From contig VBWE01000001.1 in assembly GCA_006218065.1 (NCBI GenBank), forward strand, positions 191,063 to 255,062: DNA of 64,000 bases, given 5' to 3'. Source of the stretch: Bacteroidota bacterium. Its GTDB lineage: Bacteria; Bacteroidota; Bacteroidia; Palsa-965. This document shows positions 1-60,360 of the stretch, piece by piece (positions within the stretch are counted from its first letter, which is position 1; each line of letters opens with the position of its first letter). The notes beneath the pieces were generated by a model. That model was not told where the DNA came from. It saw nothing but the letters and a program-made list of their open reading frames with translations, and ran no database searches. The translations under genes and the position numbers were made by a program.

Positions 1-143
1 TGCTGCTTTTCGGAATTTTAGAATTTGAACGGAAGAATTTCGATAATGCCTACATCGCACTGGAAAGCGTGATGCGCAACCGGCCGGGGGACGAAACAGC
101 GCGGACGATTTATAAGCGATATTATATTAAGAAACAGAATTGA
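1..143 (+). CDS. 3' end of an upstream CDS (partial; C-terminal ...ALESVMRNRPGDETARTIYKRYYIKKQN*); hypothetical, possibly TPR-like
   Basis: Open frame 3 runs from the window edge to TGA at 141-143. No start is visible in the window. Confidence 0.3.
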   Translation, partial: LLFGILEFERKNFDNAYIALESVMRNRPGDETARTIYKRYYIKKQN

Positions 144-215
144 TTTGCGATTTTGGATTGCCGATTTGCGATGTTTTATTGCAGATATTCAATCGCAAAT
201 CGGCAATCGCAAATC
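142..215. repeat. Inverted pair of the 30-bp 'U' element: RC copy at 142-171, and a direct copy lacking 'caaaa' at 193-215, separated by a 21-nt loop
   Basis: gatttgcgattttggattgccgatttgcga ... tcgcaaatcggcaatcgcaaatc, read directly from the sequence. Lies downstream of the YD-repeat gene. Confidence 0.7.
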
Positions 216-218
216 AGT

Positions 219-1094
219 TCACCGGTAGTATGTGTATGAAATTGCTTCGTGTTCTTCCCTGTCGCCAGATAGTGCACGATTGCAGTGTTCGCCGGAAAGC
301 AAACCTTGCTCATTGTAAGTAAAACTATACGTGCAGATTTCCCGCCGGCCATGGCGGGGCTGGTACGAAACGGAAACCAACCGGCCTGTTGAATCGTACG
401 CATTCGCCATCGTTTCATGGCGGACATCGTGATCATTCCTGCCCTCTCGACTGTTGTACTGCACACGGTAATAAACCGACCGGACGTTTCCACGCTCATC
501 ATACGTATATGATTCGAACGAAGGTGTGTTGGGCGAATTGTGGCTGATGCGGGTGAGCCGGCCCAGGCTGTCGTATTCTTCTTCCCTTTCCCGCCTCCCG
601 GTTTCAGGAGCATACGTGCTGATCCTTTTTCTTTCTCCGGAATTTGTTTCATACCAGTACAGTATCTTTTTCCCATCCAGCAAACGGGTCTTCACTGCCC
701 TTCCCAGCGAGTCGGTTGAATAGGTGTAGTTGAACACGCGACTTACTTTCCCTTGCGCATCGCTGTATGTTTCTTTGGTAAGCCGCCCTTGTTTATCGTA
801 AACGGAAGAAGCGATGTGACAATTGTTTTGGAGCCTGCAATGTTCCTCGCGGACCAGCAAACCGTTGCTATCCAGTTCATACACGGCCCAGCCTATTGTT
901 TTACCGGAAGAGTCGCTGCTGCTTACGCGGATTGTTTTTACTTTTTTGAGTGACTGGGCAAGCAAACGTGCTTTCAGATCGGAAGGATGGACTTGCGCGT
1001 CAGTGCGAAAAACGGGCAGGAGCAGCAAGCAAAATAGCAAACGGAAGATGTATCGATTTGGGGTCGTCGATTTTCGATGTTTTGATTGATGCAT
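219..1094 (-). CDS. Small secreted YD-repeat (RHS-family repeat) protein, 291 aa
   Basis: N-terminal signal peptide (LLFCLLLLPVF). Repeated YDxxGRL / YTYDERGN / YDSTGRLV YD-repeat motifs. Complete ORF. Confidence 0.6.
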   Translation of the reverse strand: MHQSKHRKSTTPNRYIFRLLFCLLLLPVFRTDAQVHPSDLKARLLAQSLKKVKTIRVSSSDSSGKTIGWAVYELDSNGLLVREEHCRLQNNCHIASSVYDKQGRLTKETYSDAQGKVSRVFNYTYSTDSLGRAVKTRLLDGKKILYWYETNSGERKRISTYAPETGRREREEEYDSLGRLTRISHNSPNTPSFESYTYDERGNVRSVYYRVQYNSREGRNDHDVRHETMANAYDSTGRLVSVSYQPRHGRREICTYSFTYNEQGLLSGEHCNRALSGDREEHEAISYTYYR

Positions 1095-4123: not shown

Positions 4124-4534
4124 ATGAAAAAGCTCCCCGTTGTCCTTCTCTCCGTGATCGTTTTTCTTACTGCGTTTGCTCCGAAACTTTCCGCACAGGC
4201 CAAAGGCAAACTCAAAATCAGTTACGTCGCAGTCGGTACGATCGAAGGATATTCCTATCCTTCCAAAATGAAAGTCTATATCGACGGGAAAGAAGTGGGC
4301 GAAGGTCCGGTGAAAGAACAAACCGTAAAAAATACATTTACCGTCGAAGTTCCGCAGGGACAGCATGAAGTCCGCTGTGTGCTCTGGGCCCAGTGCAAAG
4401 GCGTTTGGGAAGAACGGCTGGTTTCGAACGACTACAGTTTCGACTGGTCTTATGCCGGCACGCTGAACTTCAAAAAGAAGAACAAGCTGAAGCTCGAGTT
4501 TAACGTAACCAAAACGGCGACGATTAAAAAGTAA
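4124..4534 (+). CDS. Secreted hypothetical protein (136 aa)
   Basis: Signal peptide MKKLPVVLLSVIVFLTAFAPKLSA. No recognisable domain. Confidence 0.5.
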   Translation: MKKLPVVLLSVIVFLTAFAPKLSAQAKGKLKISYVAVGTIEGYSYPSKMKVYIDGKEVGEGPVKEQTVKNTFTVEVPQGQHEVRCVLWAQCKGVWEERLVSNDYSFDWSYAGTLNFKKKNKLKLEFNVTKTATIKK

Positions 4535-4537
4535 GCC

Positions 4538-4888
4538 TCAGCGGAATTTTTCCTGCTCCTTTTTCGGCAGCGATGCGATGATCAGTCCGTAGGAATGATC
4601 GATCCACTCCTTTAATTTTTTCCCCGGCACCGATCCGTCGGCGATAATCGTATTCCAGTGTTTCTTGTTCATATGATAACCGGGCTTTACGCAGTCGTAT
4701 TGCTCGCGCAGTTCCACGGCCAGTTCCGGGTCGCATTTCACATTAAAACGTACAGGTTTGCTTTCGATCCCGGTCAATAAAAATGCTTTTCCGCCGGCTT
4801 TGAAAACAAGCGTTTCATGATCGAAAGGAAAACATTCTTCCGCTCCTTTTTTCGTGAGGCAGTACGCACGGAGTTCTTCGATGTTCAT
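4538..4888 (-). CDS. MmcQ/YjbR-family DNA-binding protein
   Basis: 116 aa with family-typical motifs (MNIEELRAYCL...KKHWNTI). Confidence 0.6.
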   Translation of the reverse strand: MNIEELRAYCLTKKGAEECFPFDHETLVFKAGGKAFLLTGIESKPVRFNVKCDPELAVELREQYDCVKPGYHMNKKHWNTIIADGSVPGKKLKEWIDHSYGLIIASLPKKEQEKFR

Positions 4889-4890
4889 GT

Positions 4891-5643
4891 TTAAACGATA
4901 ATGCGGTACAAAACCGGTTTGCTCGGCGAAGCGTCGTTCTCAAAAGGCGCGAACTGCAGGTTCAGCAGGTAAGGCCCGTCGTAAACAGTATTCGGCACAT
5001 AGATCATTTCGGTAATGGTACGATGCGCCTGCGTGTTTTCCGGGTATTCCCAGAACGTTTTATGCGCGGCCAGTTTTCCTCCATCCACTTCCTTGTCCAC
5101 CGAAGGCATATCGAGCAGCAGGTGATCAATACCGCTGCCGATGATAAACTGCATGGCTTCCGCGTTTATATACGGAGGATTGGTATTGGAATAATTGGCG
5201 GTAAGCTTGGCCGGCGAATTGGAAAGCGTACGGATAACCAGCGCTTCCGGCCGTTTTCCGTCGAGCACATTTTCGAGGATGGTTTTCGTGATCACGAAAT
5301 CGCCGTCATCGCGCTGCTCGGGCAAAACCGTAACGACTTCCGCGATAAAGAAAAACGTTTTCAGTTCCTGGTTGATGCTGTAGTCTTCGTTGCTGATATG
5401 TCCCACGCATTCCGTATGCGTTCCATGCCCGTGCGGGTTGAAAAAAATATTTCGGAAATTCACCGAGCCGCCCTGCTTCACTTCGCCCACCCAGTCGCCC
5501 ATCCGCACCGGCTCGATCCGCATCGGGTCGACGTACCAGGCGCGGACGCTTTGTTCGGAAGCCCGCATGGGAATGGAAATATCCAGCGGCTGACTGAGAT
5601 CGGTTTTGTAGGTTTTGCCTTTGTGGTTGATGGTCGCGAACAT
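4891..5643 (-). CDS. Cyclase-family protein (kynurenine formamidase-like metal-dependent hydrolase)
   Basis: HGHGTHTE metal-binding motif of the putative cyclase family. Start is the ATG at 5641-5643 (MFATINHKG). The longer ORF-track start would read into the upstream repeat element. Confidence 0.7.
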   Translation of the reverse strand: MFATINHKGKTYKTDLSQPLDISIPMRASEQSVRAWYVDPMRIEPVRMGDWVGEVKQGGSVNFRNIFFNPHGHGTHTECVGHISNEDYSINQELKTFFFIAEVVTVLPEQRDDGDFVITKTILENVLDGKRPEALVIRTLSNSPAKLTANYSNTNPPYINAEAMQFIIGSGIDHLLLDMPSVDKEVDGGKLAAHKTFWEYPENTQAHRTITEMIYVPNTVYDGPYLLNLQFAPFENDASPSKPVLYRIIV

Positions 5644-5753
5644 GATGACCAAATTACTAATTAATCGATGTACTGATTTGAAAATTCGACAATTGAGAAA
5701 ATTTGAAAATGACCCGCGCGCGTTGATTTGTGCGCATTTTCTCAATTTTCAAA
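5644..5753. repeat. Copy A of a ~110-bp intergenic module (R2) carrying a 10-bp-stem dyad
   Basis: Near-identical to 6498-6610 apart from about 6 substitutions. Begins immediately at the cyclase start codon. Contains ttgagaaaat...attttctcaa and gaaaatg...cattttc inverted repeats. Confidence 0.7.
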
Positions 5754-5794
5754 TTGAGTAATTTTCAAATCGGCTCAATTGTCCAATCGGCAAT

Positions 5795-6490
5795 TCAACA
5801 TCCCATAATATTATACGCAATCAACGGCTTATCGGCATCGCGCCACAAAATCCAGCCGGTTACTTTCCGCACTTTTCGTTCGCCGCCTTCGGAATACCAG
5901 TCTTCGATCTGTACCTGCATCCAGCGGCCTTTCACCTGGAGCGGGTTGATGTCGGTATTATCATGATCTTCACCGCCTCTTTGCCCCGAGATAATTTTAA
6001 ACGGCGATTTCGTATCCGGTTTTTCGTAGATTTTATTTTCCGTATCACGGGGAAGATCGATGCTCGCCATGCTTTGGTAAAAGCCGAGCCAGGACAGCAT
6101 CTGAACTTTTTCGTTTACGGATACCCAGGCGGTTTTCTTTTTTTGCGTATGAATGATCACGCGGCAGAATTTTTCTTTTTTCTCGAGGCAGTTCATGTAA
6201 ATGCGCGCCTTTTCAACCGACGTATTGAAATATTCGGGCTGCAGCCATTCGGCGATACTGTCTTTCGGTGAATCGGAAATCATCTTTACGCTGTACGGAC
6301 TTGCCGAATCGAACCGAAAGGTTACTTCGAACCAGGGTGTTTTATCCGTCGCCGGATTTTCCCAGAAACTCAGCGTGACCTGCTGATCAAGGGCGGCATG
6401 TACTACACCGATGCCGTAATTTTTTTCAAAATTTCCCGCGTGAAGCAGGGGAAAAAGAAAAAGCGCGCAAACGAAGAAAACGTGTTTCAT
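5795..6490 (-). CDS. Secreted hypothetical protein (about 231 aa)
   Basis: Signal peptide MKHVFFVCALFLFPLLHA, using the ATG at 6488-6490. No recognisable domain. Bracketed by the two R2 copies. Confidence 0.5.
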   Translation of the reverse strand: MKHVFFVCALFLFPLLHAGNFEKNYGIGVVHAALDQQVTLSFWENPATDKTPWFEVTFRFDSASPYSVKMISDSPKDSIAEWLQPEYFNTSVEKARIYMNCLEKKEKFCRVIIHTQKKKTAWVSVNEKVQMLSWLGFYQSMASIDLPRDTENKIYEKPDTKSPFKIISGQRGGEDHDNTDINPLQVKGRWMQVQIEDWYSEGGERKVRKVTGWILWRDADKPLIAYNIMGC

Positions 6491-6497
6491 GGACAGG

Positions 6498-6610
6498 ATG
6501 ACCAAATTACTAATTTATCAATGTACCGATTTGAAAATTCGACGATTGAGAAAATTTGAAAATGACCCGCGCGTGTTGATTTGTGCGCATTTTCTCAATT
6601 TTCAAATCGG
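6498..6610. repeat. Copy B of the ~110-bp R2 module
   Basis: Fills the whole spacer between the hemW stop (6613) and the start of the 5795-6490 gene. Confidence 0.7.
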
Positions 6611-6612
6611 GA

Positions 6613-7740
6613 CTAAACAATAAACAAATCGGACGCGATCCGGTCGGCCAGCAGTTTTCCCTGTTCGCTCAGCCGGAGGATATTTTCCTCGCGCAGCAAA
6701 TCGCCGGAGAGCAGGTACGGCGCAGCTTCCCCGAGCAGGTAGTCACGTTTCTCAGCGCCGAAGTTTTTTTCGATCTGCTGCAGGTCGCAGCCCCGGGACG
6801 TGCGCAGGCTGATCATCACGTATTCATTATACCGCTGCGCGGGGGTCAGCGTTTCTTCTTCCCAGTATGTTTCGCCGGACTGGATCTTCGCCGCATACTG
6901 TGCATTATTCGCCAGGTTCCAGCGCCGTTTCTTCCCGTCGAACGAATGCGCCGAAGGACCGATGCCGATGTATTTTTCACCGCTCCAGTAACTGCTGTTG
7001 TGCCGGGACAAAAAACCGGGTTTGGCGAAATTGGAAATCTCGTAATGTGCAAAACCGTTTTCGTTCATGCGCTGCATGAGGATGCGGAACTGCTGCGAAG
7101 CAAGCTGCTCGTCAACCGGTTTTACTTTACCGGTTTGTACAAAATGCGCGAGGGCCGTGCGCGGTTCCACGGTGAGGCAATACGATGAAATATGCGGAAC
7201 CTGCAGACCGAATGCCGTTTCCAGGTTTTTTTTCCAGTCTGCATTTTCAAGTCCCGGTATCCCGTAAATCAGGTCGATGGTGATGTTTCCGAAACCGGCG
7301 GCCTGCGCACGTTTTACACAGTCGAGCGCTTCACCTGCAGTATGTACGCGGTTCATCAGCGCAAGGTCCTGTTCCCGGAAAGACTGTATGCCGATGCTCA
7401 GCCTGTTGATGCCGATCTCTTTCAGGCGGCGCAGGTAAACGTCGTTCAGATCATCCGGGTTGGCTTCCAGCGTGATCTCCGCATCTTCCTGCACACGGTA
7501 ATTTTCGCGGAGCAGGCCGAGCATCCGCGCCAGTTCATCCGGGGGAACCAGCGAAGGCGTTCCGCCGCCGAAATAAACAGTTGCCGTTTCTTCGTTCGCA
7601 GATTCCTGCAGCCTGCCGGTGATTTCTTTCTGCATGGCGCGCAGCATGGGCACGACCATTTTCTGCGACGTGGAAAAATGAAAATCGCAATAATGACAGG
7701 CTTGTTTGCAAAAGGGAATATGGATATAAATCCCGGGCAT
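6613..7740 (-). CDS. hemW: Radical SAM haem chaperone HemW (oxygen-independent coproporphyrinogen-III oxidase-like)
   Basis: CxxxCxxC radical-SAM motif (CKQACHYCDF), GGGTPS motif, length about 375 aa. Confidence 0.85.
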   Translation of the reverse strand: MPGIYIHIPFCKQACHYCDFHFSTSQKMVVPMLRAMQKEITGRLQESANEETATVYFGGGTPSLVPPDELARMLGLLRENYRVQEDAEITLEANPDDLNDVYLRRLKEIGINRLSIGIQSFREQDLALMNRVHTAGEALDCVKRAQAAGFGNITIDLIYGIPGLENADWKKNLETAFGLQVPHISSYCLTVEPRTALAHFVQTGKVKPVDEQLASQQFRILMQRMNENGFAHYEISNFAKPGFLSRHNSSYWSGEKYIGIGPSAHSFDGKKRRWNLANNAQYAAKIQSGETYWEEETLTPAQRYNEYVMISLRTSRGCDLQQIEKNFGAEKRDYLLGEAAPYLLSGDLLREENILRLSEQGKLLADRIASDLFIV

Positions 7741-7793
7741 ATTTTTATGTGAACAAAGAAGCTATAAAGTAAGGGCAAGACAGTGTCTTGCCC

Positions 7794-10427
7794 TTACTTT
7801 ATAGCTTCCAGTTCCTTTTTCTTATCGGCGATCATCTTCTCCATCTCTTTCGCTTTCGCCATTTTGTCTTTTAATGCCTGGATGCCGGTAGCTTCTTTGT
7901 TCACGGAAGCAAGTTCATCGATGCGGCGCTGGTATTCTTTCTGTTTTTCAACGTAGCCTTTGCGGACGGTTTCCATGCTGTTGCCAGTGAAGCTGCGGAA
8001 GAACGGTGATTTATATTTCGTGTACATTTTTTCGTACACCGCGAGTCCTTTCGTAACCGTTTCGTCGCTGCAGCGCGTGAGGTACTGCCCGTAAAAACCG
8101 ATATAGCCGATCAGTGTGTACCCGGTGATATCATCGCAGCAGCGCACCATGAAATCGAAATTGGCGTCGCTGCCGGCTTTGCCGTAGAGTTCACAAAGTG
8201 AGACTTTGACCGATTCACTTTCTTCGTTTTCATACTGTGCGGCCACCTTCATGCCTTCTTCGGTGCTCACGGCCGTAATGGCGCCGATGGCCGTACCGAG
8301 TACATAATAAGAACGATCGTTCAAAGCGTTTTTGTAAACCCCGAGCAGATCGGCATCGCCCACTTTATCGGCGAGTGCGGCAAGCGCTTCTGCGCGCACA
8401 TCCGACTTTTCATCCTGCTTTGCCATGGCGATGAGCTTCTCTTTATACGGCTTCACGTCCTTACCCAGTTTGCGGATAGCGATCATGCGCAGGTACCAGA
8501 ATTTGTCGTCGAGCGCTTTCCCGAGCACAACCAAAGCGAGGGAATCTTTCTGTGCTTTTTCCGTTTTTTCGCGCGGGGCCAAACCGTAAATCGCTTCGTA
8601 ACGATCCACGTAAAGCGGTGCGTTGCTATACTGGAAAGCCCATTCTTTTTTCGTTTTGTGATCTTCTTTTTCGCAGAGTATGCGTTTCGCCGCATCCACA
8701 TTCACCAGGTCGGGTTTTGACGAAACGTCGAACGTAAAAGTTTGTTCCCGTTCGTTCATCACGATCCGGTGACGTGTTTTTGTTCCGTTCGCATACACAT
8801 CCACATCCATCGGCAAACGGTAAACGGCAGGCACACCGCCCTTGGAACTTTGTGTCTGGCGAAGCGTCAGTTTTTCCTGTTTTTTCGTTTCGTCGTAGCT
8901 GTACGAAATATCCAGCACGGGATGGCCCGGCGATAAAAACCACTGGTTGAAATACCAGCTGAGGTCTTCCCCGGTTACCTGTTCAAAAGCCATGCGCAGG
9001 TTGTGAATTTCCACCGATTTGTACCGGTTCGATTCCAGGTACAGTTTCAGCGATGCGAAAAACGCTTCGTCGCCCACGTACCAGCGCAGCATACGCAGCA
9101 CCTGCCCGCCTTTGTTGTAGGAATGACTGTCGAACATGTCTTCCTTGTCCTCATAAAAGTAGCGGATCAGCGCTTCTTTTTTCCCCTGCCCGGCTTCGCG
9201 GAAATACCCGTCGCGCGAGTGCTGGCTGTGGTATTCTTCGGCTTCGCTGCCGTGCGCGAATTCTTCCCAGAGGTCTTCCCCGTACGTAGCGAACGATTCG
9301 TTCAGCGGCAGGTTGCTCCACGATTCGCAGGTAACCAGGTCGCCGAACCACTGGTGGAAAAGCTCGTGCGAAATATAATCTTCGTAATTCCCGTCGAGCA
9401 TTTCGCGCTCGGTTTGCTGCAGCTTTTCGCCATGCAGTGTGGCCGTGGTATTTTCCATCGCACCCGAAACGTAATCGCGGGCGCAAATCTGCGCGTACTT
9501 GCCCCAGGGATAATCCACGCCGAGTTTTTTGGAAAAGTATTCCATCATTTCCGGGGTGCGCCCGAAAATGGCGCGGGCATACTGTTCGTATTTTTTCTCG
9601 ACATAGTAACTCACTTCTTTGTCGCGCCACTTGTCTTTGACTACGGCGAAATCGCCCACGGCCATCATCACCAGGTAAGGCGCGTGCGGCAGGTTCATCA
9701 CCCAGCGATCGGTGCGGGTTCCGTCGGTGTTTTTCACCGATTCCGTCATCACGCCATTGGAAAGCGTAACGTATTTATCCTCCACCGTCATGTAAATTTC
9801 CTGTGTCATCCGTTCGTTCGGGCGATCCACGGTGGGGAACCAGGCGGAACTGGCCTGCGTTTCACCCTGCGTCCAGATCTGCATCGGCTTGTTCGGTTCT
9901 TTCCCGTCGGGATTGATGAAGTACAATCCTTTGTCGGAATTGATCGCTGCGCTGCCGCCGGCTTTCAGCTCATCGGGCTTCGCGACGTAATCGATAAAAA
10001 TGGTGTACGACTGGTCGCGTGTGTACTCGCGGCCGAGCTGGATCGAAATCACATCGGCGGCATACTTGTACTCCAGCGCTTTTTTCCCGGAAGCATCTAT
10101 CATGGATACTTCTTTGATCTCCATGCCGCGTGCATCGAGGTCGAGCGTTTTCACCGGGTAGAAATACGGCCGTGCGCTGATCGTCGCTTTTCCGTAGAGG
10201 TAACGCTTCTGCCAGTCGAAAGAAACTTCCAGCTTCGTATGCAGCAAATCGTTCACACGCGTTTCGGCATACTGGTGCACCCGCGGGGCACGCGGCGTAA
10301 TGTCGAGCGTGTCCACGTTGACCTGGACTAAAGTATCATGATTATGGCGGCGGGCTCTTTTTGCCGGGTCACATCCGGCGGTAAAAAAAATACCGGCAGC
10401 AGCCAGCAGGGAAAAAATGCTTCTCAC
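7794..10427 (-). CDS. M1-family zinc aminopeptidase with a C-terminal HEAT/ARM-like repeat region, probable lipoprotein
   Basis: GAMEN (VSGAMENT) and HELFHQWFGDLVT...E zinc motifs. A candidate GTG start at 10427 gives a lipoprotein signal MRSIFSLLAAAGIFFTAGC. The ORF track extends to 10502. Confidence 0.8.
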   Translation of the reverse strand: MRSIFSLLAAAGIFFTAGCDPAKRARRHNHDTLVQVNVDTLDITPRAPRVHQYAETRVNDLLHTKLEVSFDWQKRYLYGKATISARPYFYPVKTLDLDARGMEIKEVSMIDASGKKALEYKYAADVISIQLGREYTRDQSYTIFIDYVAKPDELKAGGSAAINSDKGLYFINPDGKEPNKPMQIWTQGETQASSAWFPTVDRPNERMTQEIYMTVEDKYVTLSNGVMTESVKNTDGTRTDRWVMNLPHAPYLVMMAVGDFAVVKDKWRDKEVSYYVEKKYEQYARAIFGRTPEMMEYFSKKLGVDYPWGKYAQICARDYVSGAMENTTATLHGEKLQQTEREMLDGNYEDYISHELFHQWFGDLVTCESWSNLPLNESFATYGEDLWEEFAHGSEAEEYHSQHSRDGYFREAGQGKKEALIRYFYEDKEDMFDSHSYNKGGQVLRMLRWYVGDEAFFASLKLYLESNRYKSVEIHNLRMAFEQVTGEDLSWYFNQWFLSPGHPVLDISYSYDETKKQEKLTLRQTQSSKGGVPAVYRLPMDVDVYANGTKTRHRIVMNEREQTFTFDVSSKPDLVNVDAAKRILCEKEDHKTKKEWAFQYSNAPLYVDRYEAIYGLAPREKTEKAQKDSLALVVLGKALDDKFWYLRMIAIRKLGKDVKPYKEKLIAMAKQDEKSDVRAEALAALADKVGDADLLGVYKNALNDRSYYVLGTAIGAITAVSTEEGMKVAAQYENEESESVKVSLCELYGKAGSDANFDFMVRCCDDITGYTLIGYIGFYGQYLTRCSDETVTKGLAVYEKMYTKYKSPFFRSFTGNSMETVRKGYVEKQKEYQRRIDELASVNKEATGIQALKDKMAKAKEMEKMIADKKKELEAIK

Positions 10428-25857: not shown

Positions 25858-25992
25858 ACGCCTCACCTCTTTCCTCCCCAAAGGGGAGGATGCTGGAATA
25901 TTTTAAGTGACGTTTCTTTCGTTGGAACGAAAGAAACGTCACTTCCCCGGTAATACCATCCTCTCCGAAGGAGAGGAAAGAGGTGAGGCGAT
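25858..25992. repeat. 135-bp nested palindromic element (structured MITE-like element or ncRNA candidate)
   Basis: Outer 18-bp inverted repeat cgcctcacctctttcctc / gaggaaagaggtgaggcg. Inner hairpins tcctcccc-aaa-ggggagga and tcctctcc-gaa-ggagagga. Central perfect palindrome gtgacgtttctttcgttggaacgaaagaaacgtcac. Confidence 0.6.
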
Positions 25993-40760: not shown

Positions 40761-41537
40761 TCAGTTGAACAGGTAGTTTTCGAGTTTCAGTTGCTGTTCG
40801 GCATAGGTGTTTTTGCGCACCACTTCACCGATGATGATGATGGCCGGCGAAGCGATTTTTTCACGGGCTACTTCTTCCGCGATCGTATCGATCGATCCCA
40901 CGGCGATGTTTTCCGTCGGGAGCGAACCGTCCTGGATCACGGCTACCGGCAGGTCGCCTTTACCGGCTGCACGGTAAATTCCCGCGATCTCTTTCAGTTT
41001 GGCCAGGCCCATGAGCACGACCACCGTAGCATTCGTCTGCGCGGCGATCTGCAGGTTACGTGATAGTTTTCCGCTGCTCGTTGTCCCGGCGATGACCCAG
41101 AAACTTTCGCTGGATCCGCGATGCGTAACCGGTATCCGCTGCAAAGCGGGCACAGCCACCGAACTGGAAATGCCGGGAACAATCTGCGTTTCGATATTGA
41201 ACGAGTCGGCGAATTCCAGTTCCTCGTAGCCGCGTCCGAAAACAAACGGATCGCCGCCTTTGAGCCGGACCACATGCCCGTGCGAAAATGCATAGTCAAC
41301 GATGAGTGTATTGATCTGGTCCTGCGTGAAACTGTGCTGTCCTTTTCTTTTGCCGACGAAAATTTTCCTGGCATGAATGGGAACATACTTCAGCAGTTCG
41401 GTATTGACCAGCGCATCGTAAAGCACCACGTCGGCGTTGCTCAGCGCGTTGATGCCTTTCAGGCTGATGAGTTCGGGATCGCCGGGACCTGCGCCGACGA
41501 GGGTGAGCTTGGGATGTATTTCGTATTTGGTTTTCAT
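40761..41537 (-). CDS. cobA: Uroporphyrinogen-III C-methyltransferase (SUMT)
   Basis: LVGAGPGDPELISLKG, VVRLKGGDPFVFGRG motifs. Confidence 0.85.
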   Translation of the reverse strand: MKTKYEIHPKLTLVGAGPGDPELISLKGINALSNADVVLYDALVNTELLKYVPIHARKIFVGKRKGQHSFTQDQINTLIVDYAFSHGHVVRLKGGDPFVFGRGYEELEFADSFNIETQIVPGISSSVAVPALQRIPVTHRGSSESFWVIAGTTSSGKLSRNLQIAAQTNATVVVLMGLAKLKEIAGIYRAAGKGDLPVAVIQDGSLPTENIAVGSIDTIAEEVAREKIASPAIIIIGEVVRKNTYAEQQLKLENYLFN

Positions 41538-41555
41538 GAGTTTGTGTTTTTTTAT

Positions 41556-41608
41556 GTGGTTCGGACCTCACCCCAACCCCTCTCCGGCAGAGAGGGGAAT
41601 TGGTTCGG
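41556..41608. repeat. Palindromic element, copy B (cctcaccccaacccctctc-cggcag-agagggg core), 18 nt upstream of the cobA start
   Basis: 53-nt stretch near-identical to 43853-43904. Contains a cccctctc/gagagggg stem. Confidence 0.65.
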
Positions 41609-41712
41609 GCCGGGTTTTTATCTTTTCTTTTTTCTGAAATCTCCTTACGGAGATTTCGATAGTCGACGTCTGCGACGTCGACTAATTGGTACTTATTTTT
41701 TGCGTAGCTCTT

Positions 41713-43842
41713 TCAACAGACTTCTTCCCTTTCCGTTTGTTTTTCGCGGTAGCGGATTATTTCCGCAAGCAGTTCGGCGGCACGCATGAGGTAGCTGCGT
41801 GCAAATTTTTCAGTGGGTTCATTTTTATTGATCTGCAGTACGAGTTCGCGGAAACCTCCGGGAACAGCGAGATCGCCGTTGTCCACGAAATGTTTGTCGA
41901 AATCGCCGAGAATGCCGTGATGCGTATTGCAGTTCACTTCTTTGGAAAGCAACAATCCCTTGGCGGCGTTCACGAAAACGCTGTAACTGTAGTAAACCGA
42001 ATCGGCAAAACGTTTTTCGGCAAATGCTTCTTCGGCGCGATCCAGTTTTTCTTCCGCTTCGAAAAAAAGCGTCTGCACCAGGTCGATCAGTACGCCCGCG
42101 CACTCGCCCACCCCGATGGCCGTCTGGAACTGTTCGGTTTGTCCCCAGTCGGTAAACTCATCGGGCGTGATATTTTTATTGTCGGCCAGCGGTTTCAGCA
42201 ACTGGTAGAAATACTCTTTGCCGCGGCGATCGTAATAGCTGTTGAAATACTCCCCCTCCACGGCGTTCGTTTCAAAATCATGCAGGAGCGATTTCAAAAC
42301 GGCGGGACCTCTTTTGCTCGGCACCTTGATAATCTTTTCGGAAATACGTCCTTCGCCGTTCCCGGTGGGGCCGCCGCCGAGCAATACCTGCAGGGCAGGA
42401 ACAACGGCTGTTCCCGCTTTAAATGAACTGCCGTGAAAACCGATCTGCGCCAGCGAATGTTGTCCGCAACTGTTCATGCAGCCGCTGATTTTGATTTTGA
42501 TATCGTGGTTGTAAACCAGTTCCGGGAACTCTTCCGTGATCACCTGTTCCAGCGCTTTCGCGATACCGGTGCTGCTGGAAATGCCGAGGTTGCAGGTATC
42601 CGTTCCCGGGCAGGCGGTGATGTGCGCCGTACTTTCCGCGCCCGCCCCGGCAAAACCGATGGCCTGCAGGGCCCTGTACAAAGCCGGCAGCGCATGCTGC
42701 GGGACGAAGCGCAGCAAAAATCCCTGCGCCGGCGTAATGTGGATTTCTTCTTTCGAAAATTGTTCCGCGATTCCTGCGAAAATCCGCGCGGTCCTGGTGT
42801 CCAGGTTTCCGAGCTGTACTTTCACGCGGACAGCATACCAATCGTCCTGCTTCTGCGGGATCACGTTGGTATCGAACCAGTCGCGGTAATTTTCATCGTC
42901 GCTGATGCGGAAAGTGGTGAATACTTCCTGCGTGGCACCCGGGATGCGGCGCGCCGGCACATCGACCGGGAACGATTTTACTTTCAGTGCAACCCGTTCT
43001 TCTTCCACCAGCTTTTTCAATTCCGCGATGCCGGTTTTCTGCACCAGGTATTTGATGCGCGCTTTGTGGCGACTGGTCCGTTCACCGTGCCGGTCGAATA
43101 CGCGCAGCACCGCTTCGATGAACGGGATGAGCTGGTCGGATGCGAGGAATTCATCGGCCACCTGCGCGAGAAACGGCTGCGCACCCAGTCCGCCGCCCAC
43201 GAACGCCCGGAAGCCCCGCTGCAGTTGCCCGTCCACGATCCGCACTTTGGGAATAAAACCCAGGTCGTGCATAAACACGTAAGCGGTGTCTTCGTCGTTC
43301 GATGAAAAAGCGATTTTGATTTTTCGCCCGAGCTCCTGGCAAACCGGGTTGCGCAGGAAGTACTGGAATACCGCTTCCGCATAAGGCGTCACATCAAACG
43401 GTTCCAGCGGATCGATCCCGGCTTCGGGCGAAGCGGTAACGTTGCGCACGGTATTTCCGCAGGCTTCGCGGAGCGTGATATCGTCTTCTTCGAGTTCGGC
43501 CCAGAGTTGCGGCGTACGGTCGAGGCTCACGAAATGGATTTGAATATCCTGCCGCGTGGTGAGGTGTAATTTGCCGTTCGAATACGTATCGCTTACATCG
43601 GCGATGCGTAATAATTGTTTCGGCGTAAGTTTTCCATAAGGCAGTTTGATGCGGATCATCTGCACACCGGGCTGGCGTTGTCCGTATACCCCGCGGGCCA
43701 GGCGCAGGCTGCGGAATTTCTCCGGGTCGATCTTTCCTTCGCGGAAGAGCTGGATTTTCTCCCCGAGCTCGACGATGTCTTTTTCTACGAGCGCTTTTCT
43801 TCCGCCGGCGGCCTGTTCTATTTCTGTCTGGAAACTTTGCAT
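41713..43842 (-). CDS. sir: Sulfite reductase hemoprotein (ferredoxin-type nitrite/sulfite reductase) with a ~150-aa C-terminal helical extension
   Basis: Sirohaem/4Fe-4S Cys cluster motifs (ACPGTDTCNLG…GCMNSCGQH). 709 aa. Confidence 0.85.
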   Translation of the reverse strand: MQSFQTEIEQAAGGRKALVEKDIVELGEKIQLFREGKIDPEKFRSLRLARGVYGQRQPGVQMIRIKLPYGKLTPKQLLRIADVSDTYSNGKLHLTTRQDIQIHFVSLDRTPQLWAELEEDDITLREACGNTVRNVTASPEAGIDPLEPFDVTPYAEAVFQYFLRNPVCQELGRKIKIAFSSNDEDTAYVFMHDLGFIPKVRIVDGQLQRGFRAFVGGGLGAQPFLAQVADEFLASDQLIPFIEAVLRVFDRHGERTSRHKARIKYLVQKTGIAELKKLVEEERVALKVKSFPVDVPARRIPGATQEVFTTFRISDDENYRDWFDTNVIPQKQDDWYAVRVKVQLGNLDTRTARIFAGIAEQFSKEEIHITPAQGFLLRFVPQHALPALYRALQAIGFAGAGAESTAHITACPGTDTCNLGISSSTGIAKALEQVITEEFPELVYNHDIKIKISGCMNSCGQHSLAQIGFHGSSFKAGTAVVPALQVLLGGGPTGNGEGRISEKIIKVPSKRGPAVLKSLLHDFETNAVEGEYFNSYYDRRGKEYFYQLLKPLADNKNITPDEFTDWGQTEQFQTAIGVGECAGVLIDLVQTLFFEAEEKLDRAEEAFAEKRFADSVYYSYSVFVNAAKGLLLSKEVNCNTHHGILGDFDKHFVDNGDLAVPGGFRELVLQINKNEPTEKFARSYLMRAAELLAEIIRYREKQTEREEVC

Positions 43843-43852
43843 GGTTTTTTTT

Positions 43853-43904
43853 GTGGTTGGGCCTCACCCCAACCCCTCTCCGGCAGAGAGGGGAATTGGT
43901 TCGG
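43853..43904. repeat. Palindromic element, copy A, 10 nt upstream of the sir start
   Basis: gtggttgggcctcaccccaacccctctccggcagagaggggaattggttcgg. Confidence 0.65.
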
Positions 43905-43930
43905 CACATTTTCTTTGTTTACATTCTCTT

Positions 43931-44011
43931 GTCTCGCTTCGCTCGACTTTACTGTTTCTTCCGTCTCGCTTTGCTCGACTTTTCATTTTCTTTCGTCTCG
44001 CTTTGCTCGAC
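43931..44011. repeat. Three tandem direct repeats, period 32 bp, with core cgtctcgctt(t/c)gctcgac
   Basis: Cores at 43931-43947, 43962-43979 and 43994-44011. A partial inverted copy cgtcgagc sits at 44036-44043. Confidence 0.65.
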
Positions 44012-44075
44012 GTGCTTTACTTGTTTTTGTTCTTTTCGTCGAGCTGCGCCCGACTTTCAACACTTTCCTTTTTTG

Positions 44076-44147
44076 AGGCTCCTGGCAGAATTGAACTGCC
44101 GTCTCCGGTTTTGCAGACCAGCGCTTGGACCACTCAGCTATGGAGCC
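44076..44147 (-). tRNA. tRNA-Cys (anticodon GCA)
   Basis: Manual fold. Acceptor GGCTCCA/GGAGCC. T-arm GGCAG-TTCAATT-CTGCC. Anticodon arm CTGGT-CTGCAAA-ACCGG with U33 and A37. 72 nt. CCA is not encoded. Confidence 0.8.
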
Positions 44148-44692
44148 AAAAATCAAAAAGCCCTCCCGGCATTGCTTCCGGAAGGGCTTTTCTTTAAACA
44201 CACATTAAACCAACCTAGCCATTTTCCAAAGCGTTTCCGGACCGTATGATACACATACAGCACATACACATGGTGAACATGTATGCCGGTTTCGCGTTGG
44301 TTGTTTTCTGAATATTCATTTTATGTTTTTCCTGTTTTATTAAAAGCGAAGAGGGCTTTCCGGTTACCCTGGAAAGCCCTCTTGCTTGATTGTTATGGTT
44401 TCAGCAAAGCCCTTCCAGCGCGTCAGCGACACATCATACCGCACATGCAGCATGTTGTTTGGAAGATATTGGCCTTGTTGTTCATGATCGTGATTTGTGA
44501 AGGCAAAGATAAAGGCAAAAAAACACGCCGGGCAAATTTTTCTGAATAATTTTTTTGGAATCCTATTTACAATGAGGGCGCGGGCCGTGATTTTGCGAGC
44601 GGGAATGCGGTGGGGAATTGTTATTTTTAGCTTTCGCAGATTAATATGCGGGAAAGAAAAACAACCTGCAGATTTTCAAAATCCCTGTAAAC

Positions 44693-57660: not shown

Positions 57661-57792
57661 TATTCCTGCCGGGTTATTTACTGACTACGAATATATCAGG
57701 AAGAACGTAAACTACCGCAGGCCGGAAACCAGGGTCGGCGCGGCATGGTCGAGTGCGGGGTCGTATAAGCAGATTATTCCGGGGAGTCAGTA

Positions 57793-58045
57793 GTCCGGGG
57801 ACTCACCCCCCGGCCCCCTCTCTCCGACGTTGTATGTTTTGTATAAACGAAAGTCGGGGTTGCGACAACGTCGCAAAGAGGGGGAGCCACAACTTATAGT
57901 AAATGGAACTACTGTAATACCTGCGTCAAAGACGCAGGTATTACAGTTTTACGACACCCCCTCCTTTGCGGCTTTGTTTTAAAAGAGCTTTTCTTGTAAA
58001 ACAGAACAAAGCCGGAGAGAGGGGGCCGGGGGGTGAGTCCCCGGA
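57793..58045. mobile_element. 253-bp MITE-like element with perfect 33-bp terminal inverted repeats
   Basis: Left TIR tccggggactcaccccccggccccctctctccg (57793-57825). The right end, cggagagagggggccggggggtgagtccccgga (58013-58045), is its exact reverse complement. Internal hairpins include gtaatacctgcgtcaaagacgcaggtattac. Confidence 0.65.
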
Positions 58046-58065
58046 AAACTATCTATTTTTACCTC

Positions 58066-60360
58066 ATGCCGCGATTTGCCTGGTTTCTGTTTTTCTCCTT
58101 TTTACCCCCACTGCTCGGGGCGCAGCAGAATTTTACCATCAGCGGAACTGTTTTGGATTCCACGAACGGGGAATCGGTGATCGGCGGCGTGGTTTACGTG
58201 AAGGGAACGTCGAAAGGAGTGCAGACAAACGTGTACGGCTTTTATTCGCTCACGCTGGCCGAAGGCAGTTATGATATTATCGTGAATTATGTCACCTACC
58301 GTTCACGTACCCTGCACGTCGATCTGAAAAGTAACGTTACGCTGAACATCCGCCTGGCCCCGGAAGGAACAGCGATCGATGAAGTCGTGATTACTGCGGA
58401 CAAGGACAAAGAGAAAGAACAACTGCGTTCCACACAAATGAGCGCGATCAATATCCCGATCGACCAGATCAAACATATTCCCACCATCGGCGGCGAAACC
58501 GACGTGATCAAAGTGATGCAGCTGATGCCGGGAGTAAAACGCGGAGGTGAAGGTCAGAATACGATGCTCGTGCGCGGCGGTTCGGGAGACGATAACCTGA
58601 TCCTGCTCGATGAAGCGGTAGTGTACAACGTCTCGCATCTTTTCGGTTTTTTCTCCGTCTTCAATAACGATGCGCTGAAAGACGTAACGCTGATCAAAGG
58701 CGGTTTTCCTTCGCAATACGGCGGACGGCTTTCGAGCGTGATGGATATCCGCATGAAGGACGGCGATATGCAGAAATATCACGTGGACGGCGGAATCGGT
58801 TTGCTGTCGTCGCATTTAACCGTGCAGGGCCCGATCAAAAAAGATACCTGTTCGTTTATTCTTTCCGGCCGCCGTTCATATATCGACCAGCTTTTCCGGC
58901 TCGTGTATAAAGAAGACCTGCTTCCGTATTATTTCTACGATGCGACGCTGAAAGTGAATTACATTCTTTCCGACAAGAACCGCCTTTTCCTGAGCACATA
59001 CTACGGCGATGATGTGCTTCGTCCCCCGAAATCCGACAGCGCACTTTTCGACGGCGGTTTCCGGCTCGGGAATTTCACCACCACGCTTCGCTGGAACCAC
59101 GTGTATAATTCGAAACTGTTTTCGAATCTTTCGTTCATCCACACGCGTTTCCGTTACGACGTGGAAGCCAGCGTGCCGGGAAATTCTTTTCTCGCCAAAT
59201 CGCGCATTGCGGATTACGGCGTGAAGCTCGATTACAGCTATTACAAAAACCCGGAAAACCTGGTTCGTTACGGCGGACTGGTTACCCTGCACGGATTCCG
59301 CCCGAACGTGGTGAACACTGCCGGCGTTATTTCCGACGTAATCCGTTCGCGCGAAGGCGCGCTCAAGTCGAACGTCGAAGCCGGTTTATATATCCAGCAC
59401 GAATGGGAAATCCACCCGCTGCTGAAACTCGGCTACGGTTTCCGCGAATCGTTTCTTATCGATTCCGATACGTTTTACACTTCGCCTGAACCGCGCGCCG
59501 CGCTCACGTATAATTTCCACGAAAAACAATCGCTTAAACTGAGCTACGCGCGCATGACGCAATACGTACATCTCGTATCGAGTTCGGCCGTTGCGCTGCC
59601 TACCGATCTCTGGTACCCGGTGACCAAAAATGTAAAACCGCTGTATTCCGACCAGGTGGCGGCAGGTTACAATTACAATTTTGAAAAACTGAAAACGCTC
59701 GCCTCGTTCGAAGTGTATTACAAGCACATGAAAAACCTGATCGAATACCGGGAAGGCGCCGTACTGCTGCTGAACGACAATTACGAAAACGAACTGGTGA
59801 GCGGCAACGGCGATTCTTACGGATGCGAATTGTTTGCGCAGCGTTCTTCAGGCCGTTTTACCGGCTGGATCGGGTACACGCTTTCGTGGACCACGCGTAA
59901 GTTCGATGCGCTCAACGGCGGAAAACGGTACTACGCGAAATTCGACCGGCGTCATGACGTGTCCGTGGTCGGCGCGTATGAAATCACGAAACGCTTTCTG
60001 ATCTCCGCCGTCTGGGTATATTCCACCGGCCAGCGGTTCACGCCGGTGATCGGGTATTACCTGATGCCGAATTCTTCGCTGACCGACGTGGATATCCTGC
60101 CGATATACGGCGACCGCAACAGTACCGAACTTCCGCCCGCGCACCGCCTCGACCTCAGCCTCGTGCTGAAATCGCGCGAGAAAGAAAAACGCAAATGGAT
60201 GAAATGGGAAAGTGAATGGAGCGCGGGTGCGTATAACGTTTATAACCGCGCACAACCGTATCGCATCGAAGTAGTAGACAACGGGCAGGGCGGGCTGAAA
60301 TACGTAGCCAAAGGTTTATTCGGCATGATTCCTTTCATCGCATATAATTTCCGGTTCTGA
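58066..60360 (+). CDS. TonB-dependent outer-membrane receptor with an N-terminal carboxypeptidase-regulatory-like domain
   Basis: Signal peptide. CarbopepD_reg-like region (ISGTVLDSTNGESVIGGVVYV). Plug and barrel. Terminal F (…YNFRF). Confidence 0.8.
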   Translation: MPRFAWFLFFSFLPPLLGAQQNFTISGTVLDSTNGESVIGGVVYVKGTSKGVQTNVYGFYSLTLAEGSYDIIVNYVTYRSRTLHVDLKSNVTLNIRLAPEGTAIDEVVITADKDKEKEQLRSTQMSAINIPIDQIKHIPTIGGETDVIKVMQLMPGVKRGGEGQNTMLVRGGSGDDNLILLDEAVVYNVSHLFGFFSVFNNDALKDVTLIKGGFPSQYGGRLSSVMDIRMKDGDMQKYHVDGGIGLLSSHLTVQGPIKKDTCSFILSGRRSYIDQLFRLVYKEDLLPYYFYDATLKVNYILSDKNRLFLSTYYGDDVLRPPKSDSALFDGGFRLGNFTTTLRWNHVYNSKLFSNLSFIHTRFRYDVEASVPGNSFLAKSRIADYGVKLDYSYYKNPENLVRYGGLVTLHGFRPNVVNTAGVISDVIRSREGALKSNVEAGLYIQHEWEIHPLLKLGYGFRESFLIDSDTFYTSPEPRAALTYNFHEKQSLKLSYARMTQYVHLVSSSAVALPTDLWYPVTKNVKPLYSDQVAAGYNYNFEKLKTLASFEVYYKHMKNLIEYREGAVLLLNDNYENELVSGNGDSYGCELFAQRSSGRFTGWIGYTLSWTTRKFDALNGGKRYYAKFDRRHDVSVVGAYEITKRFLISAVWVYSTGQRFTPVIGYYLMPNSSLTDVDILPIYGDRNSTELPPAHRLDLSLVLKSREKEKRKWMKWESEWSAGAYNVYNRAQPYRIEVVDNGQGGLKYVAKGLFGMIPFIAYNFRF

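What the first reader, a model, noticed from the sequence alone, without database searches (positions are those of the whole stretch)
5644..6610. Gene for a secreted protein bracketed by two near-identical ~110-bp intergenic modules
The entire spacers hemW|5795-6490 and 5795-6490|cyclase are copies of one element, about 95% identical, each starting exactly at the downstream gene's start codon. Each copy carries a 10-bp-stem dyad (ttgagaaaat…attttctcaa) around a GC-rich core, acccgcgcgcgttgatttgtgcgc, and a TAATTTGG (-7-like) motif just before the ATG. This looks like a portable terminator-plus-promoter/operator module. Either the middle gene was inserted together with a duplicated copy, in cassette fashion, or both downstream genes are co-regulated through the same operator.
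Basis: seen in the sequence. Interest (0 to 1): 0.55.

Follow-up and report, generated by a model that had tools for sequence, protein, structure and literature searches.

The report
Duplicated hairpin-plus-leader spacer flanking one gene
Two neighbouring gaps between genes in an uncultured Bacteroidota genome carry 95%-identical copies of a 115-base hairpin-plus-leader sequence, most likely a recent local copy that split an old operon, not a mobile cassette; it is real but fairly ordinary.

Summary
5640-5754 and 6493-6607 are direct copies, 109/115 identical. Each has a nested AT-rich palindrome around a GC hairpin, then about 30 nt ending at the next gene's start codon.

The cassette reading fails. 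Relatives keep the order hemW / X / cyclase / YjbR (or lack X) with unrelated spacers. In four of five X-bearing relatives X abuts the cyclase (overlap to 8 nt; 47 nt in the fifth). Copy A is therefore more than 100 nt gained inside a formerly tight operon junction. Copy B fills the whole hemW|X spacer.

No third copy exists in the window. Two 20/21-mer metagenome scans, one viral scan and a six-frame peptide search found none. The rest of this genome could not be searched.

The unit lacks terminal inverted repeats, target-site duplications and attC core sites, and matches no Rfam family.

Best reading: the hemW|X spacer, with its terminator-like hairpin and a -7-like TAATTTG box at a typical distance from ATG, was copied locally in front of the cyclase. 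Function is inferred, not shown.

All three intergenic repeat families in the window sit in consecutive spacers, which suggests a local copying process.

The parts
6493..6607 (-). Copy B of the shared 115-nt unit. Together with 6608-6610 (CGG) it fills the hemW|X spacer to within 2 nt of the hemW stop codon and 2 nt of the X ATG.
5640..5754 (-). Copy A of the shared 115-nt unit, 95% identical to B. It runs through the cyclase start codon (5641-5643).
   Evidence: L120 independent assembly
5755..5794 (-). Part of the X|cyclase spacer specific to A. It holds a second AATTTTCAAATC arm (5760-5771, a 16-nt tandem repeat of 5744-5759) that extends the hairpin, then 21 nt up to the X stop codon. The 21 nt may be a remnant of the original short X|cyclase spacer.
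   Evidence: (I2, I5); read directly from the sequence
5675..5686 (.). Outer stem arm GATTTGAAAATT of copy A. Its partners are 5744-5755 (1 mismatch) and 5760-5771.
6528..6539 (.). Outer stem arm of copy B. Its partner is 6597-6608; the full arms 6523-6539 / 6597-6613 are 94% complementary.
   Evidence: I23
5693..5745 (.). Inner 10-bp dyad TTGAGAAAAT / ATTTTCTCAA around the core, copy A.
6546..6598 (.). Inner 10-bp dyad around the core, copy B.
5716..5735 (.). GC-rich core hairpin GCGCGCG-TTGATT-TGTGCGC, copy A. The consensus scan calls it terminator-like only on the + strand, where it forms 7 pairs including 2 G.U followed by ATTTTCTC. On the gene (-) strand those G.U positions become A.C mismatches.
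6569..6588 (.). GC-rich core hairpin, copy B. The one substitution here (C to T at 6574) keeps a G.U pair on the + strand only.
5649..5656 (-). TAATTTGG, a -7-like box (TAnTTTG, one base short of the Bacteroidetes TAnnTTTG). It starts 13 nt before the cyclase ATG.
   Evidence: the same GTAATTTGG lies 5 nt before the cyclase ATG in relative L123
6502..6509 (-). TAATTTGG -7-like box of copy B. It starts 19 nt before the X ATG.
5795..6490 (-). Gene X (Xb type): 231 aa, N-terminal signal peptide, no Pfam family. Nearly an orphan at the sequence level, but it occupies a conserved position.
6613..7740 (-). hemW-like radical SAM gene (Radical_SAM + HemN_C).
4891..5643 (-). Cyclase / arylformamidase-family gene (PF04199). 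The start MFATI... is conserved in relatives.
4538..4888 (-). YjbR-family gene, 2 nt after the cyclase. It is linked to the cyclase in every relative except L124.

Best explanation
The two modules are copies of one lineage-specific intergenic unit produced by a local copy event (short-range duplication or gene conversion) between neighbouring spacers of an old, conserved locus: hemW / X-cyclase-YjbR.

The most likely direction is that the native hemW|X spacer was copied into the formerly tight X|cyclase junction. That spacer carries a compound hairpin directly after the hemW stop codon plus about 30 nt of AT-rich leader with a -7-like box. The copy split the X-cyclase-YjbR operon and placed the same hairpin and the same promoter-like leader in front of the cyclase as in front of X.

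Inferred mechanism: the hairpin acts as a terminator, insulator or RNA-processing and stabilising structure between genes, and the TAATTTG box starts a transcript with almost no leader, as is usual in this genome. X and cyclase-YjbR would then be separately punctuated but controlled by identical DNA.

Shown: the repeat, its structure, its position, its absence from relatives, and the gain at the X|cyclase junction. Inferred: the direction of copying, and the terminator and promoter activity.
For: (1) The repeat is real and also present in an independent assembly.

(2) Gene order is ancestral and the spacers are not:
- L001: hemW-144 nt-Xb-47 nt-cyclase.
- L121: hemW-242 nt-Xa-2 nt-cyclase.
- L124: Xa-8 nt-cyclase.
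- L125: Xa-5 nt-Xb-3 nt-cyclase.
- L126: Xa overlaps the cyclase.
- L123: hemW-55 nt-cyclase.
None of them contains the element. The 151-nt X|cyclase spacer here is therefore a gain.

(3) Copy B is essentially the entire hemW|X spacer (122 nt), at a position where relatives have 144-242 nt of their own sequence. An element inserted into a native spacer should leave flanking spacer DNA behind, so B looks like the native spacer and A like the copy. This is an inference.

(4) The unit lacks transposon hallmarks. No third copy, even a diverged one, lies in the other 63 kb.

(5) All three intergenic repeat families in the window are confined to consecutive spacers. My own calculation puts the chance of this under random placement at about 6e-6. 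This points to a short-range copying process in this genome.

(6) TAnnTTTG is strongly tied to gene starts here: 10 of 25 occurrences lie within 60 nt upstream of a start, where 0.7 would be expected, at -13 to -58 (nine of the ten at -13 to -36). The element's TAATTTG sits at -13 and -19.

(7) The hairpins fold better than shuffled sequence, with z from -2.2 to -4.4.
Against: - The rest of the genome (a 417,702-bp contig plus others) could not be searched, so a dispersed family is not excluded.
- The copied segment ends within a few bases of gene boundaries at both ends of B. For a random duplication that is a coincidence, unless selection trimmed it.
- The -7-like box is one base short of the consensus, and no -33 TTTG lies at the right distance (read from the sequence).
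- On the gene strand the core hairpin is weak, and the terminator scan flags only the opposite strand. Canonical terminators in this genome look different.
- No mechanism for copying 115 nt to a site 853 nt away is demonstrated.
Confidence: 0.5

Rival explanations
1. The unit belongs to a dispersed, non-autonomous repeat family (similar to a MITE, ERIC, Correia or SPRITE element). More copies would exist elsewhere in this genome, and two of them happened to land in adjacent spacers, bringing an outward-facing promoter and a hairpin with them.
For: Size, palindromic structure, intergenic position next to gene starts and lack of coding capacity all resemble Correia, ERIC and SPRITE elements (PMC10969869). 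The genome is rich in other palindromic intergenic repeats. Independent assemblies break inside these repeats. Copy A is clearly a gain relative to relatives.
Against: The ends of the shared unit carry no terminal inverted repeats and no target-site duplication; the palindrome is internal and off-centre. Only two copies lie in 64 kb, and they are neighbours in the same orientation and the same register to the start codons. There were no hits in JGI metagenome contigs beyond chance 20-mers, none in viral contigs, and no translated trace among 5.8 billion protein clusters. Copy B leaves no room for a native spacer.
Confidence: 0.2
2. The palindrome is an operator array for a DNA-binding regulator (the ATTTGAAAAT word occurs 3-4 times per copy, in both orientations). 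The duplicate would exist because selection favoured putting the cyclase under the same regulator as X. The hairpin would have no role at the RNA level.
For: The words GATTTGAAAATT and ATTTGAAAATG are repeated, 5 matches against 1.2 expected, all inside the two copies. The outer 3' arm overlaps the region where a -33 element would lie (read from the sequence). Five of the six substitutions fall outside the core and right arm.
Against: No relative has such a palindrome upstream of X or the cyclase. No regulator gene is adjacent. Arm spacings of 33-57 nt are unusual for a single dimeric operator. With two copies there is no statistical power.
Confidence: 0.1
3. The functional strand is the + strand, antisense to the genes. 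The GC hairpin followed by ATTTTCTCAATTTTC would then be an intrinsic terminator that stops antisense transcription, or the 3' end of a small antisense RNA.
For: The terminator scan calls both copies only on the + strand. The core stem has 2-3 G.U pairs on the + strand that become A.C mismatches on the - strand. The only core substitution keeps G.U on the + strand, and + strand folds are 1-4.5 kcal/mol more stable.
Against: No + strand gene or recognisable + strand promoter feeds into either copy. The energy differences are small. The strand bias rests on very few positions.
Confidence: 0.07
4. The direct repeats are recombination sites of a gene cassette (integron attC-like, or sites for another site-specific recombinase), and X entered or leaves the locus as a cassette.
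For: Direct repeats of about 115 bp with imperfect palindromes flanking a single, fast-evolving, variably present gene; X is absent in L123.
Against: X homologues occupy the same position next to the cyclase in five relatives without any such repeats. The attC core sites RYYYAAC / GTTRRRY are absent from copy B and present only once, in the part specific to A. hemW and the cyclase are conserved housekeeping-type neighbours, not cassettes.
Confidence: 0.03

Closest known systems
Correia repeat-enclosed elements (Neisseria MITEs)
   Same: About 100-200 bp, palindromic and non-coding. They sit immediately upstream of genes, carry promoter sequences, and form RNA hairpins that are processed (PMC10969869). 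This is the best functional analogue of a hairpin plus outward-facing promoter.
   Different: Correia elements have 26-bp terminal inverted repeats, TA target duplications and more than 100 dispersed copies. Here the unit ends carry no terminal inverted repeats and no target-site duplication, and only two adjacent copies are known.
ERIC / IRU and REP/BIME sequences of enterobacteria
   Same: Imperfect palindromes in transcribed intergenic regions of operons. Their presence varies between orthologous spacers of related species, and they affect the stability of mRNA segments (established knowledge; PMC10969869; PMC3184786 appears in the listing).
   Different: Those families are dispersed genome-wide and shared across genera. 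This unit was found nowhere else. It also includes a non-palindromic leader that runs to the start codon.
[quoted passage not shown]
   Same: A small repeat whose core looks like an intrinsic terminator. It tends to cluster with other repeats.
   Different: Different phylum and sequence, and a multi-copy family. Here terminator likeness on the gene strand is weak.
Integron attC sites
   Same: Imperfect palindromes of similar length that flank single genes as direct repeats.
   Different: Core sites are absent. The bracketed gene is syntenic in relatives that lack the repeats.
Ordinary segmental duplication or ectopic gene conversion of a regulatory region
   Same: Two copies, close together, same orientation, about 5% diverged, no transposon hallmarks. 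This is the category I file it under.
   Different: The copied piece is unusually short and coincides with a whole spacer. The same pattern recurs for two other repeat families in this window.

Membership tests
MITE (miniature inverted-repeat transposable element) | Terminal inverted repeats at the ends of the repeated unit | tested here: not met
   Aligning the left 30 nt with the reverse complement of the right 30 nt of each copy gives only a 9-nt, 7-match alignment. The palindrome is internal (5669-5757), leaving about 30 non-palindromic nt at the gene-proximal end.
MITE | Target-site duplication flanking each copy | tested here: not met
   The flanks are TGATGGTCGCGA|unit|TGAGTAATTTTC for A and CGTGTTTCATGG|unit|CGGGACTAAACA for B. 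Neither shows a direct repeat.
MITE / REP-like dispersed repeat | Many dispersed copies in the genome | tested here: inconclusive
   Only two copies lie in 64 kb, and they are adjacent (nhmmer --max and blastn).
MITE / REP-like dispersed repeat | Small, non-coding | tested here: met
   The unit is 115 nt. The only ORF inside it (26 aa on the - strand) differs at 4 of 26 residues from 5 substitutions, so it is not conserved as a protein (my reading).
Rho-independent (intrinsic) terminator | GC-rich stem-loop directly followed by a U-run on the transcribed strand of the upstream gene | tested here: not met
   The consensus scan flags 5716-5735 and 6569-6588 only on the + strand. On the gene (-) strand the stem has A.C mismatches and the T-rich run starts about 6 nt after it. 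Canonical terminators elsewhere in the window are clear. This lowers 'is a canonical terminator', not 'acts as a transcription or RNA-processing barrier'.
Bacteroidetes sigma-A type promoter | -7 box TAnnTTTG at a short distance upstream of the start | tested here: inconclusive
   The element has TAATTTG (TAnTTTG), one base short, at -13 and -19. Exact TAnnTTTG boxes are strongly enriched upstream of starts (10 of 25; nine of the ten at -13 to -36, one at -58). The one-short variant shows 4 of 20 upstream of starts, including these two.
Bacteroidetes sigma-A type promoter | -33 TTTG about 19-21 nt upstream of the -7 box | tested here: not met
   Reading the - strand upstream of TAATTTG gives TTTTC about 23 nt away in A and no TTTG at the expected spacing in either copy.
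Integron gene cassette / attC | R'' (RYYYAAC) and R' (GTTRRRY) core sites at the two ends of the palindrome | tested here: not met
   Neither site is present in copy B on either strand. A has a single site, ATTCAAC / GTTGAAT at 5793-5799, outside the shared unit.
Integron gene cassette / attC | The bracketed gene is a mobile cassette, not syntenic in relatives | tested here: not met
   X-type genes lie directly upstream of the cyclase in L001, L121, L124, L125 and L126.
Integron gene cassette / attC | Integron integrase nearby | not tested
   The window's proteins were not scanned systematically for tyrosine recombinases.
Any curated RNA family (Rfam 15) | Match to a covariance model | tested here: not met
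   Nothing meaningful appeared at E up to 10 in 4500-8000. At gathering scores, the whole window yields only tRNA-Cys.
Diversity-generating retroelement TR/VR pair | Differences between the repeats confined to adenines of one copy, with one repeat inside a coding region | tested here: not met
   The six differences are T/G, A/T, G/A, T/C, A/G and C/T, and both copies are intergenic.

The most novel reading that the evidence does not exclude
This genome has a short-range 'copy to the neighbouring spacer' process that propagates whole intergenic punctuation modules (hairpin plus leader up to the start codon). It would split operons and wire adjacent genes to identical control DNA. The finding would be one of three instances in 64 kb (1-2053, 5644-6612, 41538-44692), and would represent a mode of regulatory evolution distinct from transposition.
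Probability: 0.15. Interest if true: 0.6.

Novelty: new member of a known kind. Interest (0 to 1): 0.25.

Why it matters
If the reading is right, this is a clean natural example of an operon (X-cyclase-YjbR) being split by copying a neighbour's complete intergenic region. The copy gives the downstream genes the same hairpin and promoter-like leader. The fact that all three intergenic repeat families in this window sit in consecutive spacers hints at a local copying or gene-conversion process acting on hairpin-rich spacers in this Bacteroidota lineage. That process could be a cheap route to co-regulation. On its own, however, the element is a two-copy, lineage-restricted repeat in a MAG with no demonstrated activity.

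Tried and rejected
- **Genome-contig scan with the bare dyad** (TTGAGAAAAT N25-45 ATTTTCTCAA).
- **Metagenome scans.** The core 21-mer gave 0 hits. The right-arm 20-mer gave 5 hits, all chance matches of about 21-28 nt: a signal-peptide coding region, and an unrelated hairpin in L128/L131. The viral scan gave 0 hits.
- **Six-frame peptide query of the element against 5.8 billion protein clusters**, to catch spurious ORFs over other copies. Nothing scored at E up to 1. This is a weak negative.
- **Homology between the flank specific to A and the 3' end of hemW**, which would have fixed the copying direction. Only the 8-mer CCGATTTG is shared, which is not significant (258 of 2000 shuffles score as well).
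- **Exact-product look-ups.** X and hemW are not on record. The 50-200 kb contig carrying the cyclase was not returned with DNA, so the window could not be extended.
- **Other readings considered and rejected:**
  - attC sites and a DGR TR/VR pair.
  - A 26-aa ORF inside the unit.
  - Rfam families.
- **Mirrored-structure energy evaluation** across strands gave inconsistent numbers because of non-canonical pairs. I did not use it.

Full report
**1. What is there**

All four genes of the locus lie on the minus strand:
- a hemW-like radical SAM gene (6613-7740; Radical_SAM + HemN_C);
- a 231-aa gene X with a signal peptide and no Pfam family (5795-6490);
- a cyclase / arylformamidase-family gene (4891-5643; PF04199);
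- a YjbR-family gene (4538-4888).

The two spacers are 122 nt (hemW|X) and 151 nt (X|cyclase). The repeat finder reports a 115-nt direct repeat, 5640-5754 vs 6493-6607, at 95% identity (alignment). The six substitutions are listed. A 28-mer from the unit, and the dyad TTGAGAAAAT-N33-ATTTTCTCAA, each occur exactly twice in the window with none expected in shuffles.

An independent Logan assembly of run SRR8863435 (L120) is 100% identical to window 5751-1882. It begins inside copy A at the first k-mer that distinguishes A from B. The repeat is therefore genuine, and it breaks assemblies as a repeat should.

**2. Anatomy**

Read in the direction of the genes, each unit starts 2-5 nt (B) or 21-40 nt (A) after the upstream stop codon. 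It consists of:
- an outer stem GATTTGAAAATT / AATTTTCAAATC;
- an inner 10-bp stem;
- a GC-rich core hairpin (5716-5735 and 6569-6588);
- about 30 non-palindromic AT-rich nt, ...ATTAGTAATTTGGTCATC, ending at the start codon.

In A the repeat includes the cyclase ATG. In B the homologous triplet is CTG, and the X ATG is two codons further on.

The folds are more stable than shuffled sequence, with z of -3.6 and -2.5 on the gene strand and -4.4 and -2.2 on the other strand.

Copy A has an extra arm. 5760-5775 is a 16-nt tandem repeat of 5744-5759, and it lengthens the hairpin to about 107 nt. If that 16-nt repeat is treated as an insertion, homology between A and B continues through AATTTTCAAATCGG. 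That means to within 2 nt of the hemW stop in B and 21 nt of the X stop in A (read).

**3. Relatives**

X has only one detectable sequence homologue in 5.8 billion protein clusters (36% identity). The cyclase, by contrast, has thousands of homologues, the nearest at about 80% identity. Fetching their contigs gave six comparable loci:

| Locus | Arrangement |
|---|---|
| L001 | hemW-144 nt-Xb-47 nt-cyclase-YjbR |
| L121 | hemW-242 nt-Xa-2 nt-cyclase-YjbR |
| L124 | Xa-8 nt-cyclase |
| L125 | hemW...Xa-5 nt-Xb-3 nt-cyclase-YjbR |
| L126 | Xa overlapping cyclase-YjbR |
| L123 | hemW-55 nt-cyclase-YjbR, no X |

The X-like proteins fall into two old paralogue types. The window's X is of the Xb type.

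None of these loci contains the element (blastn-short and nhmmer), and their spacers are not repeats of one another.

Two conclusions follow. First, X is an old resident of this position, so it did not arrive as a cassette with a duplicated flank. Second, the X|cyclase junction is normally tight and operon-like, so the 151-nt spacer here, and with it copy A, is a gain.

**4. Is it a mobile family?**

Several tests speak against the standard families:
- The ends of the shared unit are not inverted repeats of each other, and there is no target-site duplication.
- attC core sites are absent from B.
- The A/B differences are not adenine-specific.
- No Rfam family matches.

Within the window there is no third copy, even a diverged one. 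Outside the window, results were also negative:
- A 21-mer from the core gave 0 hits in JGI metagenome contigs.
- A 20-mer from the right arm gave five chance matches.
- A viral scan gave 0 hits.
- A six-frame peptide query found no protein that overlaps a copy.

The important gap is that I could not search the rest of this genome. My single genome-contig scan used a pattern that was too loose and overflowed with unrelated hits. A dispersed family inside this MAG therefore remains possible, and I give it 0.2.

**5. Direction and origin (inference)**

Copy B is the whole hemW|X spacer, at a position where relatives have long spacers of their own. Copy A sits in a junction that is 0-8 nt in most relatives. 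The simplest history is that the native hemW|X spacer was copied in front of the cyclase, and that the 21 nt next to the X stop are what remains of the original short spacer.

A test for residual homology between A's flank and the hemW 3' end was not significant. The direction therefore rests on parsimony only.

One lead is unresolved. In L123, which lacks X, the same GTAATTTGG lies 5 nt before the cyclase ATG.

**6. A recurring local pattern**

I compared all 44 intergenic segments of the window with one another. Exactly three repeat families emerged, and each is confined to consecutive spacers:
- 1-218 / 1095-1138 / 1823-2053;
- 5644-5794 / 6491-6612;
- 41538-41712 / 43843-44692.

By my own calculation, the chance of this under random placement is about 0.045 x 0.045 x 0.003, or roughly 6e-6. 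This favours a short-range copying or conversion process over random transposition. The third family also ends 15-25 nt before the start codons of two consecutive genes.

**7. How it probably works (inference)**

This genome uses Bacteroidetes-type promoters with very short leaders. Ten of 25 TAnnTTTG occurrences lie within 60 nt upstream of a same-strand start, where 0.7 would be expected, and nine of those ten begin 13-36 nt before the ATG. The unit's TAATTTG begins at -13 (cyclase) and -19 (X), which is the right place. It is, however, one base short of the consensus, and no -33 TTTG lies at the proper distance.

The hairpin sits where terminators sit in this genome, but it is not a canonical one. 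Canonical examples have GC-rich stems followed directly by T-runs. In the unit, the core stem is weak on the gene strand, and the scan flags it only on the opposite strand. I therefore describe it as a terminator-like or RNA-processing hairpin, possibly bidirectional, and not as a proven terminator.

The net effect I propose is that X and cyclase-YjbR each sit behind the same hairpin and the same promoter-like leader. They would be uncoupled from each other but controlled alike.

**8. Comparison with known systems**

Functionally the closest analogues are Correia elements, ERIC sequences and SPRITE. All are small intergenic palindromes that bring promoters, processing sites or terminator-like hairpins next to genes (review PMC10969869). 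Membership in the MITE class fails on terminal inverted repeats and target-site duplications, and is untested on genome-wide copy number. attC membership fails. I file the feature as a local duplication of a regulatory spacer, a known kind of event, with a new sequence.

**9. Verdict**

Interest is low to moderate at 0.25. The most novel reading still open is a dedicated short-range process that propagates spacers (probability 0.15).

Noticed in passing
window 129-226, 1035-1144, 1866-2052: A second AT-rich palindromic module, with arms GATTTGCGATTTTGGATTGCCGATTTGCGAT / ATCGCAAATCGGCAATCCAAAATCGCAAATC, occupies three consecutive spacers on the minus strand: after DUF502, after the 227-aa gene and after the 291-aa gene. 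In the third copy a separate 28-bp-arm hairpin (1926-1996) is nested in the loop. The independent assemblies L120 and L132 end inside these copies. Relative L121 has a differently sequenced long palindrome right after its DUF502 gene.
   Followed up: partly
window 41549-41608 and 43845-43904 (minus strand): A 61-nt module, 95% identical between copies (CCGAACCAATTCCCCTCTCTGCCGGAGAGGGGTTGGGGTGAGG...), lies 15-25 nt upstream of the ATGs of two consecutive genes (40761-41537 and 41713-43842). This is the same 'gene bracketed by twin spacers' pattern as the finding. Related GGAGAGGGG..GGGGTGAG words also occur at 57789-58050 (just upstream of 58066-60360) and at 25859-25990.
   Followed up: partly
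window about 44214-44486 (minus strand), upstream of tRNA-Cys 44075-44147: Two small Cys/Met-rich ORFs (MNNKANIFQTTCCMCGMMCR and MNIQKTTNAKPAYMFTMCMCCMCIIRSGNALENG) are each followed by a canonical hairpin plus T-run. They lie directly upstream of the only tRNA in the window, tRNA-Cys(GCA). They could be leader-peptide attenuators or small Cys-rich peptides.
   Followed up: no
window 43924-44019: Three tandem 32-nt repeats (TTCT..GTCTCGCTTYGCTCGAC...) lie between the tRNA-Cys gene and the 61-nt module.
   Followed up: no
window 7758-7808: A perfect 25-bp-arm palindrome overlaps the stop codon of the M1-peptidase gene and is followed by TCTTTGTT. It is a textbook terminator 50 nt before the hemW start. 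Long hairpins occupy most spacers of 100 nt or more in this window.
   Followed up: partly
L001, L121, L124, L125, L126 vs window 5795-6490: The secreted protein X belongs to two old paralogue types, Xa and Xb (about 22-26% identical to each other; conserved N-terminal YG(I/V)G(V/I) motif). They are present singly, together (L125) or not at all (L123), and always lie immediately upstream of the cyclase-YjbR pair. This is an uncharacterised secreted family genetically tied to an arylformamidase-like enzyme.
   Followed up: partly
L128 6040-6120 and L131 (JGI / GenBank metagenome contigs): An unrelated organism has an intergenic palindrome built from similar words (GAATTGAGAATTGAG ... CTCAATTTTCAATTC) that shares about 24 nt with the element's right arm. 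I judged it a chance or convergent match.
   Followed up: no
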